64,000 bases of DNA from the human T2T-CHM13v2.0 reference genome, Homo sapiens. Where the stretch lies: NCBI RefSeq assembly GCF_009914755.1, contig NC_060947.1; one strand, given 5' to 3'. Below the pieces are notes generated by a model, which saw nothing but the letters and a program-made list of their open reading frames with translations, ran no database searches and had not been told where the DNA came from. The position numbers and the translations under genes were made by a program. Shown one piece after another: positions 50,381 through 50,480 of this stretch (position 1 is the stretch's first letter; each line of letters starts with the position of its first letter).

Positions 50381-50480
50381 AGTTCTGACACGATTCTTTT
50401 TAAAAACACGGCTAGTTATCAAGTTCACTTTCTTCACTGGAAGAAATGATGCAATAATTGTCTTTAGTGTCCTTGGCAGC
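50381..50480 (-). CDS. FAM9A: FAM9A exon 9 (stop TAG at 50412-50414; remainder is 3' UTR)
   Basis: TTTTAG|GCT ... ACT|GTAAGT; encodes [22 protein letters not shown]. Confidence 0.9.

What the first reader, a model, noticed from the sequence alone, without database searches (positions are those of the whole stretch)
50412..50480. Exon diverged about three times more than its intron: positive-selection signature
Seen (manual count): the first 22 codons of FAM9A exon 9 versus the duplicate exon (26738 downward) differ at 29/66 nt (44%). Of these, 22 are at codon positions 1-2, 18/22 residues change, and no codon differs only synonymously. The adjacent intron (50492-50600 vs 26751-26858) differs at 14/108 nt (13%). 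Known: X-linked SYCP3-derived families (mouse Xlr/Slx) evolve rapidly, and Slx/Sly are in sex-chromosome conflict. Inference: strong diversifying selection on FAM9 after duplication.
Basis: partly seen in the sequence, partly recalled or inferred. Interest (0 to 1): 0.7.

Follow-up and report, generated by a model that had tools for sequence, protein, structure and literature searches.

The report
Fast-evolving last coding exon of FAM9A
The last coding exon of the testis gene FAM9A has changed several times faster than the DNA around it, almost entirely by amino-acid-altering changes, which is the known pattern of adaptive evolution in X-linked reproductive genes.

Summary
Across the rest of the 2.5-kb duplicated block, FAM9A and the fragment differ at 229 of 1872 sites (12.2%). 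None of 1546 other 66-column windows exceeds 18 mismatches.

The partner at 24554-27144 is not a copy of FAM9A. It is an old, truncated relic of the family that evolves neutrally and still encodes the ancestral SYCP3-like C-terminus. Eight genomic copies show that all the excess lies on FAM9A, on X:8.59 Mb (taken as FAM9B) and on their shared stem. These are the only lineages that translate exon 9.

In exon 9, FAM9A versus the fragment gives pN 0.49 and pS 0.20, with intron divergence 0.16. My own codon model gives omega about 13 on those branches (p=1.8e-4). FAM9A versus X8.59 over exons 4-9 gives omega about 3 (p=0.001-0.005). Introns read as codons give omega 0.74-1.04.

A micro-inversion and an exon-limited donor patch were tested and rejected.

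Verdict: positive selection is supported by paralogue tests. Primate orthologues were not available. This is a new member of a known kind.

The parts
50415..50480 (-). FAM9A exon 9, 22 sense codons ([22 protein letters not shown]). This is the hyper-diverged block.
   Evidence: 29 of 66 nt differ from the fragment and 19 of 66 from X8.59. No match to any PDB chain at E<=10 and no Pfam family.
50412..50414 (-). TAG stop of FAM9A. It comes into frame through a 4-nt gap that FAM9A and X8.59 share relative to the other copies.
   Evidence: Alignment of 8 copies.
50381..50411 (-). Remainder of exon 9. It is 3'UTR in FAM9A and homologous to sequence that is still open reading frame in the fragment. 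Divergence is intermediate.
   Evidence: Stop plus UTR part: 12 of 34 versus the fragment and 5 of 34 versus X8.59. By my reading of the alignment, at least 2 of those 5 are CpG transitions.
49896..50273 (-). FAM9A exon 10 (all 3'UTR). It serves as an internal neutral-like control.
   Evidence: 44 of 312 versus the fragment and 16 of 378 versus X8.59. Read in the ancestral frame it is shifted by a 4-nt gap.
48338..50885 (-). FAM9A side of the duplicated block: part of intron 8, exon 9, intron 9, exon 10 and about 1.5 kb downstream.
   Evidence: blastn and MAFFT.
24554..27144 (-). Orphan FAM9-like relic, truncated in intron 8. It is not in the hub's gene table. It is homologous to all full-length copies up to 27144.
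   Evidence: It has the longest non-coding branch, 0.121.
27145..27725 (-). Sequence beyond the truncation point. It is shared only with the relic at X:7.53 Mb, so the two relics share one junction and descend from one truncated copy.
   Evidence: window 26401-27725 matches L003 at 83%. The other five loci compared (L002, L004, L005, L006, L008) stop at 27144.
26634..26738 (-). The relic's exon-9 homologue: 105 nt, 35 open codons (SIKNLEKYDERTLFGEGSQLKKEITVFQSKTVSET). The AG acceptor and GTAAGT donor are kept.
   Evidence: It aligns end to end (1-35 and 2-35) with SYCP3 chains 6dd8_A and 4cpc_A, with weak E-values of 0.55 and 1.7. Exon and flank rates are equal.
26468..26521 (-). The relic's exon-10 homologue: 17 open codons plus stop (LQQELALMQLSLQSLLF*), which continues the frame of the previous exon.
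   Evidence: FAM9A reads LLEELALHCLFNLCYSDD* at the same place.

Best explanation
Exon 9 encodes the C-terminal tail of FAM9A, an X-linked, testis-expressed derivative of the synaptonemal-complex protein SYCP3. In the lineage leading to FAM9A and its neighbour at X:8.59 Mb (taken as FAM9B), this exon was cut short by a 4-nt deletion that brings a TAG into frame. It then accumulated amino-acid-changing substitutions about 5 to 24 times faster than the surrounding non-coding DNA. This happened repeatedly: on the common stem and then again on each gene.

Copies that do not translate exon 9 changed at the neutral rate. These are the relic in this window, three other relics or pseudogenes, and X:12.62 Mb (taken as FAM9C), whose frame ends in exon 8. 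They still carry the SYCP3-like sequence.

The most likely cause is recurrent positive (diversifying) selection on the protein tail. That is an inference from rates. It is shown that the excess is real, coding-biased and specific to those lineages. What the tail binds, and why change is favoured, is not shown.
For: (1) Size of the spike. 29 of 66 nt against 229 of 1872 elsewhere in the block (P=1.5e-10). It is the top window of 336 for FAM9A versus X12.62 and third of 368 for FAM9A versus X8.59; the two higher windows lie at 58408-58525, in the intron between exons 2 and 3, and the remaining non-exon windows in the top lists lie at 58.2-58.6 kb, at 60.4-60.7 kb around exon 1, and singly at 53468-53558 and 59726-59825.

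(2) Lineage specificity. In 28 pairwise comparisons of 8 copies, all 10 pairs within the group X10.80, X12.62, X151.46, X7.53 and fragment have an exon/flank ratio of 0.8-1.4, none significant. All 18 pairs that include FAM9A, X8.59 or the Y copy have a ratio of 2.0-4.6, all with p<=6.5e-3.

Exon-9 branch lengths on the non-coding tree, with 150 bootstraps:
- FAM9A 0.151 [0.062-0.286] against 0.0235
- X8.59 0.138 [0.055-0.251] against 0.029
- stem 0.263 [0.133-0.398] against 0.011
- fragment 0.122 [0.051-0.210] against 0.121

Sites fixed between the two groups: 13 of 100 exon against 9 of 990 non-coding (p=3.8e-9).

(3) Coding bias. FAM9A versus fragment: pN 0.49, pS 0.20. FAM9A versus X8.59: pN 0.32, pS 0.13. 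N versus intron p=4.7e-8, S versus intron p=1.0, N versus S one-sided p=0.034.

(4) Translation tracks the acceleration. The longest ATG frame of X12.62 (166 aa) ends in exon 8 after an 11-nt deletion. That of X8.59 (190 aa) ends ...SELDN in exon 9, like FAM9A.

(5) Polarity. The fragment's peptide aligns with SYCP3. FAM9A's peptide matches nothing.

(6) The pattern extends to other coding exons but not the UTR exon. FAM9A versus X8.59: exon 5 7 of 32, exon 6 21 of 112, exon 8 18 of 99, against flanks of 6.7-11.7%. UTR exon 10 is 16 of 378.
Against: - All tests use human paralogues, not orthologues.
- The foreground branches of the branch model were chosen after seeing the data. Exon 9 has only 22 codons and about 12 synonymous sites. 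The codon model is my own script, checked only by the intron control.
- Nei-Gojobori over exons 3-9 gives dN/dS of only 1.0-1.2, and pS (0.136-0.19) is above my pooled intron figure of about 9-10%.
- FAM9A, X8.59 and X12.62 over exon 4 to early exon 8 give omega 1.5-1.7, significant in 1 of 3 codon-frequency settings. Exons 3-5 show no excess on the FAM9A or X8.59 branches (ratio 1.0).
- The untranslated part of exon 9 is also raised (5 of 34 against 31 of 589 for FAM9A versus X8.59).
- Non-coding divergence between FAM9A and X8.59 is heterogeneous along the gene (5.3-14.2%, chi-square p=8e-7), so the local neutral reference for that pair is uncertain about 2.7-fold.
- Non-coding trees for exons 6-8 are poorly resolved (support 43-56%), and a presumed pseudogene (X151.46) also shows a 2.0-2.4-fold exon excess there.
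Confidence: 0.7

Rival explanations
1. Gene conversion kept introns and UTRs of the family similar. The exons show the true, older divergence, so the exon/intron contrast overstates or creates the signal.
For: Non-coding divergence between FAM9A and X8.59 varies from 5.3% (exon 9 flanks) to 14.2% (exon 3 flanks), chi-square 38.7, p=8e-7. Non-coding trees are star-like with support of 43-56%. Exon 4 is almost identical between FAM9A and X8.59 (2 of 121, against 58 of 591 in its flanks). Whole-CDS pS of 0.136-0.19 exceeds my pooled intron figure of about 9-10%.
Against: Exon 9 pS equals the intron value. Pairs among the five non-translating copies show no exon excess (10 of 10). Conversion would have to spare exactly about 100 nt on both sides in the stem and again in two descendants. 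Even against the highest non-coding value (14.2%), the coding 66 nt of FAM9A versus X8.59 are at 29%. dN/dS above 1 does not depend on introns.
Confidence: 0.12
2. Relaxed constraint. Once the SYCP3-like coiled coil was truncated, the tail drifted neutrally and the apparent excess is noise.
For: Nei-Gojobori dN/dS is about 1.0-1.2 over exons 3-9. The three-gene omega of 1.5-1.7 is not significant in 2 of 3 settings. Exon 9 is short.
Against: Neutral drift cannot exceed the neutral rate. Here the exon branches are 5 to 24 times the non-coding ones, with bootstrap intervals that exclude the non-coding value for FAM9A, X8.59 and the stem (149, 150 and 150 of 150 replicates above it). Omega is significantly above 1. 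Copies that really are unconstrained in exon 9 sit at a ratio of about 1.
Confidence: 0.08
3. A local mutational event scrambled the exon in one step: a micro-inversion, a clustered multi-nucleotide mutation, or a patch copied from a diverged donor.
For: The reverse complement of FAM9A 50438-50470 aligns with the fragment (score 13). 0 of 2000 shuffles of the core reach this, 14 of 2000 for the whole exon, and 17 of 5000 random window 51-mers (one of them the fragment itself). The non-coding part of exon 9 is also raised.
Against: - Reverse-complemented FAM9A does not match its closest relatives: score 6 versus X8.59 and versus the Y copy, reached by 880 and 630 of 1000 shuffles. The direct alignments score 29 and 15 and are collinear.
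- Reverse-complemented X8.59 and Y show nothing against the five SYCP3-like copies (10 of 10 comparisons reached by 62 or more of 1000 shuffles).
- Palindromic scores of 13-14 occur at two other places in the block.
- The Y copy and X8.59 are stepwise intermediates.
- The excess recurs on three separate branches.
- A genome-wide search with exon 9 alone finds only itself and X8.59 (2 of 2 candidates).
- pS is not raised.
Confidence: 0.05

Closest known systems
Mouse SYCP3-like sex-linked families (Xlr, Slx/Slxl1, Sly)
   Same: They are SYCP3-derived, sex-linked and germline-expressed. One preprint passage lists FAM9A/B/C as the primate members of the Xlr superfamily (10.1101/2021.03.30.437712). 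They are described as rapidly evolving, with sites under positive selection (PMC11848428, passages).
   Different: In the mouse, gene-wide dN/dS is 0.63 and 0.58, most selected sites lie in or near the N-terminal Spindlin-binding region, the genes are massively amplified, and they have expressed Y-linked antagonists (PMC11848428 passages). Here there are three genes plus relics at 5-16% divergence. The Y copy is a rearranged fragment with a deletion inside exon 9. The strongest signal is in the C-terminal exon.
Primate duplicated gene families whose exons diverge faster than their introns (morpheus/NPIP; SPANX). Recalled from memory and not confirmed by any search; the review opened showed no passage on this.
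   Same: Coding divergence exceeds neighbouring intron divergence among paralogues, which is read as positive selection after duplication. SPANX is also X-linked and testis-specific.
   Different: Here the effect is concentrated in the C-terminal half (exons 5-9) and peaks in one 66-nt stretch. It comes with a built-in control: copies that no longer translate the exon.
SYCP3 (synaptonemal complex lateral element; PDB 4cpc, 6dd8)
   Same: The relic's exon-9 homologue aligns over all 35 residues with SYCP3 chain residues 99-133 (6dd8_A) and 123-156 (4cpc_A). FAM9A exon 8 matches Pfam Cor1 positions 71-102 of 132.
   Different: FAM9A and X8.59 have lost detectable similarity in this segment. They stop 13 codons before the exon's end, so they also lack what the relic still encodes from exon 10.

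Membership tests
Cor1/Xlr/SYCP3-like family (Pfam PF04803) | Match to the Cor1 profile at or above the curated cut-off | tested here: inconclusive
   Only single exons could be submitted. FAM9A exon 8 (33 aa) matches Cor1 positions 71-102 of 132 at E=0.0012, 19.6 bits, against a cut-off of 32.1. FAM9A exon 9 and the relic's exon 9 each match 0 families.
Cor1/Xlr/SYCP3-like family (Pfam PF04803) | Collinear similarity of the exon-9 peptide to SYCP3 | tested here: inconclusive
   Relic: end-to-end alignment to SYCP3 chains, but E=0.55 and 1.7. FAM9A: no hit at E<=10.
FAM9 paralogue set | Collinear DNA homology through introns and exons with FAM9A | tested here: met
   The own-genome searches list nine places on X and Y that hold the exon-9 region, and 8 of them were aligned. 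Full-length copies lie at X:8.59, X:10.80 and X:12.62 Mb, and copies that start at exon 6 lie in Xq28.
Positively selected duplicated genes (exon faster than intron) | Coding divergence significantly above adjacent non-coding divergence | tested here: met
   For example, FAM9A versus X8.59 is 24 of 100 against 31 of 589 (p=3.6e-8).
Positively selected duplicated genes (exon faster than intron) | dN/dS significantly above 1 | tested here: met
   with the intron control. Caveats: foreground chosen post hoc, my own implementation, and Nei-Gojobori over the whole CDS gives only 1.0-1.2.
Positively selected duplicated genes (exon faster than intron) | Synonymous rate not raised above the intron rate | tested here: inconclusive
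   Exon 9: pS 0.20 against intron 0.16 (p=1.0), but only about 12 synonymous sites. Whole CDS: pS 0.136-0.19 against about 9-10%.
Positively selected duplicated genes (exon faster than intron) | Elevated dN/dS between orthologues of several species, or a McDonald-Kreitman excess | not testable with these tools
   No primate genomes or human polymorphism data were available.
X-versus-Y conflict system of the Slx/Sly type | An intact Y-linked paralogue that could act as antagonist | tested here: not met
   The only Y matches (Y:6.766-6.767 Mb) are a rearranged piece covering part of intron 8 to exon 10, with a deletion removing most of exon 9.
X-versus-Y conflict system of the Slx/Sly type | High copy-number amplification of near-identical copies | tested here: not met
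   The copies differ by 5-19% in non-coding DNA. No near-identical copy of the gene was found.

The most novel reading that the evidence does not exclude
FAM9A and FAM9B may be fast-evolving 'capping' derivatives of SYCP3. They keep the helical core that could co-assemble with SYCP3 on meiotic chromosome cores, but replace the end of the helix and the fibre-forming C-terminus with an acidic, serine-rich tail. That tail has been remodelled repeatedly under selection, as expected if an X-linked modulator of chromosome-axis assembly were in genetic conflict in primate male meiosis.

A minor variant: the neutral-looking relic 23 kb downstream, which still has open frames, splice sites and a stop at the ancestral place, could serve as an alternative 3' end that restores an SYCP3-like tail.
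Probability: 0.1. Interest if true: 0.7.

Novelty: new member of a known kind. Interest (0 to 1): 0.45.

Why it matters
Rapid adaptive change is a hallmark of X-linked, testis-expressed genes, and the mouse relatives of this family are in an X-versus-Y arms race. For the primate FAM9 genes I found no published selection analysis in the searchable library. The original description (Genomics 2002) is not held, so it may say more.

The human genome alone already gives a clean natural experiment. The same exon is translated in two genes and untranslated in six other copies, and only the translated ones are accelerated. This points to the C-terminal tail, the part that differs most from SYCP3, as the place to look for FAM9 function. 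One paper reports that FAM9B sits on meiotic chromosome cores (PMC8432983, title and passages).

Tried and rejected
(1) Micro-inversion of 50438-50470. It looked promising at first. It was rejected because reverse-complemented FAM9A does not match X8.59 or the Y copy, and direct alignments are collinear.

(2) Donor patch. A genome search with exon 9 alone found no other source. A protein search with the relic's exon found only family copies, 4 of 4.

I used branch lengths on a fixed tree instead.

(4) The strict 'private difference' count undercounts in the exon, because it needs all other copies to agree. It still gives FAM9A 7 of 100 against 14 of 967 (p=0.002). For X8.59 it gives 4 of 100 against 17 of 995, which is not significant (p=0.12).

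(5) Exon-versus-intron branch analysis for exons 3-8 was only partly informative. Trees were unresolved, exon 7 holds repeat expansions, and the X10.80 flanks are misaligned around insertions.

(6) The Pfam scan of single exons gave little.

(7) Literature. No FAM9 selection study was found. Nielsen 2005 has 0 hits in the 2 supplement files held. The 2026 X-ampliconic gene paper has 0 mentions of FAM9.

(9) No structure or complex prediction was run. The full spliced protein is a joined sequence, so I did not submit it.

Full report
**The observation**

FAM9A lies on the minus strand. Its exon 9 (50381-50480) carries the last 22 sense codons and the TAG stop.

A blastn of the window against itself shows that 48338-50885 is repeated in the same orientation at 24554-27144, at 81-88% identity. 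This block holds part of intron 8, exon 9, intron 9, exon 10 and about 1.5 kb downstream.

- 29 of 66 nt differ, split 13/9/7 over codon positions.
- 18 of 22 residues differ.
- No codon differs only synonymously.
- 14 of 108 nt differ in the intron.

In a MAFFT alignment the spike coincides with the exon. Outside exon 9 the two copies differ at 229 of 1872 aligned columns (12.2%). This is even across introns (61 of 506), UTR exon 10 (44 of 312) and downstream DNA (124 of 1054). P(29 or more of 66) is 1.5e-10, and the worst of 1546 other windows has 18 mismatches.

**What the partner is**

The fragment's exon-9 homologue (26634-26738) is 105 nt long, with acceptor and donor intact and 35 open codons. 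It aligns end to end with SYCP3 chains 6dd8_A and 4cpc_A, though the E-values are weak because it is so short (0.55 and 1.7). The next exon continues the frame for 17 codons to a stop.

The FAM9A peptide matches no PDB chain at E<=10. So the fragment keeps the ancestral state and FAM9A is the derived one.

The window's own genome holds further copies:
- Full-length copies at X:8.59 Mb (89% identical around exon 9; taken as FAM9B from its position and reading frame), X:10.80 Mb (broken donor sites) and X:12.62 Mb (taken as FAM9C).
- Copies that start at exon 6 in Xq28.
- 3' relics at X:7.53 Mb and Y:6.77 Mb.

The fragment and the X:7.53 relic share sequence beyond the truncation point (to 27725), so both descend from one truncated copy. 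The fragment has the longest non-coding branch (0.121). It is therefore an old relic, not a copy of FAM9A.

**Where the excess lies**

I compared exon 9 with 600 nt of flanks for all 28 pairs of 8 copies.
- The 10 pairs among X10.80, X12.62, X151.46, X7.53 and the fragment have ratios of 0.8-1.4, none significant.
- The 18 pairs that include FAM9A, X8.59 or the Y copy have ratios of 2.0-4.6, all significant. FAM9A versus X8.59 is 24 of 100 against 31 of 589.

I then built a tree from 1136 non-coding columns and fitted exon-9 branch lengths on that fixed topology, with 150 bootstraps of the exon columns.

| Branch | Exon 9 [95% interval] | Non-coding |
|---|---|---|
| FAM9A | 0.151 [0.062-0.286] | 0.0235 |
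| X8.59 | 0.138 [0.055-0.251] | 0.029 |
| Stem between the two groups | 0.263 [0.133-0.398] | 0.011 |
| Fragment | 0.122 [0.051-0.210] | 0.121 |

Assembling the homologous exons of each copy shows why. The longest ATG frame of X12.62 (166 aa) ends in exon 8 after an 11-nt deletion, so exon 9 is untranslated there. X8.59 (190 aa) ends ...SELDN in exon 9, like FAM9A. The acceleration is therefore seen only where the exon is translated.

**Is it protein-level?**

Nei-Gojobori counts for exon 9:

| Pair | pN | pS | Intron |
|---|---|---|---|
| FAM9A vs fragment | 0.49 | 0.20 | 0.16 |
| FAM9A vs X8.59 | 0.32 | 0.13 | 0.053 |
| Pairs among the SYCP3-like copies | 0.00-0.15 | – | – |

Fisher tests for FAM9A versus the fragment give N versus intron 4.7e-8, S versus intron 1.0, and N versus S 0.034 one-sided.

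My own GY94 likelihood script gives the following.
- On FAM9A, X8.59 and the two stem branches, omega is 13.4, against 1.1 elsewhere. The LRT against omega=1 gives 2dlnL 14.0, p=1.8e-4.
- For FAM9A versus X8.59 over exons 4-9 (180 codons), omega is 2.7-3.1, p=0.001-0.005, under three codon-frequency settings.
- Introns read as pseudo-codons give omega 0.74-1.04, with 6 of 6 not significant. So the script is not biased upward.

**Results that weaken the case**

- Nei-Gojobori over exons 3-9 gives dN/dS of only 1.0-1.2, with pS above my pooled intron value.
- The three-gene test over exon 4 to early exon 8 is significant in only 1 of 3 settings.
- Exons 3-5 show no excess on the FAM9A or X8.59 branches.
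- The untranslated remainder of exon 9 is intermediate, at 15-38%.
- The foreground branches were chosen after seeing the data.
- Non-coding divergence between FAM9A and X8.59 is heterogeneous (5.3-14.2%, p=8e-7). This hints at past gene conversion, so the 4.6-fold ratio for that pair may be inflated. Against the highest non-coding value the coding part is still twofold.

**Rivals**

A micro-inversion looked possible at first. It fails against the closest relatives and the stepwise intermediates. No other genomic donor exists for exon 9. Neutral drift cannot exceed the neutral rate. Conversion of introns cannot explain the FAM9A-fragment pair, or the absence of excess among the untranslated copies.

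**Comparison with what is known**

FAM9A/B/C are listed as the primate members of the SYCP3-like Xlr superfamily (one passage of 10.1101/2021.03.30.437712). Mouse Slx and Sly evolve fast, with selected sites mostly N-terminal, and have amplified Y antagonists (passages of PMC11848428). Here the copies are few and the Y copy is broken, so membership of a conflict system is not met.

The exon-faster-than-intron pattern is known from memory for the morpheus/NPIP and SPANX families.

I found no FAM9 selection study in the library. The 2002 paper that described the family is not held.

**Verdict**

It is sharpened by a natural control, and it is a new member of a known kind.

Noticed in passing
window 58067-58195 and 59182-59310: FAM9A exons 2 and 3 (both 129 nt) and their flanks map to the same single region in all three full-length paralogues. 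FAM9A therefore carries an internal tandem duplication of its first coding exon.
   Followed up: partly
window 54185-54440 (exon 7): FAM9A exon 7 holds 229-243 extra alignment columns of triplet repeats. On the plus strand these are TTC x56 and CTG x25, which read as poly-Glu and poly-Ala. They are absent from 5 of 5 paralogues. The hits to a tandem array on contig 6 at 65.44 Mb fall in this low-complexity part.
   Followed up: partly
L012 (X:12.62 Mb) and L010+L011 (X:10.80 Mb), exon 8 homologue: Both share an 11-nt deletion in exon 8. In X12.62 it ends the longest frame at 166 aa, which leaves exon 9 untranslated.
   Followed up: partly
L010+L011 (X:10.797-10.812 Mb): This is a full-length FAM9 copy with a 54-column gap in exon 4, a GT-to-TT change at the exon 3 donor and a GT-to-AT change at the exon 9 donor. 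Its longest frame is 110 aa. It looks like a pseudogene.
   Followed up: partly
window 57460-57580 (exon 4) versus L009: Exon 4 is nearly identical between FAM9A and X8.59 (2 of 121), while its flanks differ at 58 of 591. This is the opposite of the other coding exons. It suggests either purifying selection on this acidic segment or a recent short conversion.
   Followed up: no
L004 (Y:6.766-6.767 Mb): The Y-linked relic of the FAM9A/X8.59-type lineage has exon 9 cut by a deletion (52 gap columns), with a piece of intron 5 lying next to it. Its exon 9 start is intermediate between the two sequence types.
   Followed up: partly
Xq28, own genome X:151.41-151.52 Mb (L008, L013, L014): Two FAM9-like copies lie in opposite orientation here (151.459-151.466 Mb and 151.430-151.437 Mb). 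Both lack exons 1-5. A further pair of pieces lies at 151.415 and 151.519 Mb in an inverted arrangement.
   Followed up: no
window 26468-26738: The relic keeps two open exons (35 plus 17 codons), both splice sites of the first exon, the acceptor of the second, and a stop at the ancestral place, despite about 12% neutral divergence. Its pN is about equal to its pS, so there is no sign of constraint. Whether it is ever spliced to FAM9A was not testable.
   Followed up: partly
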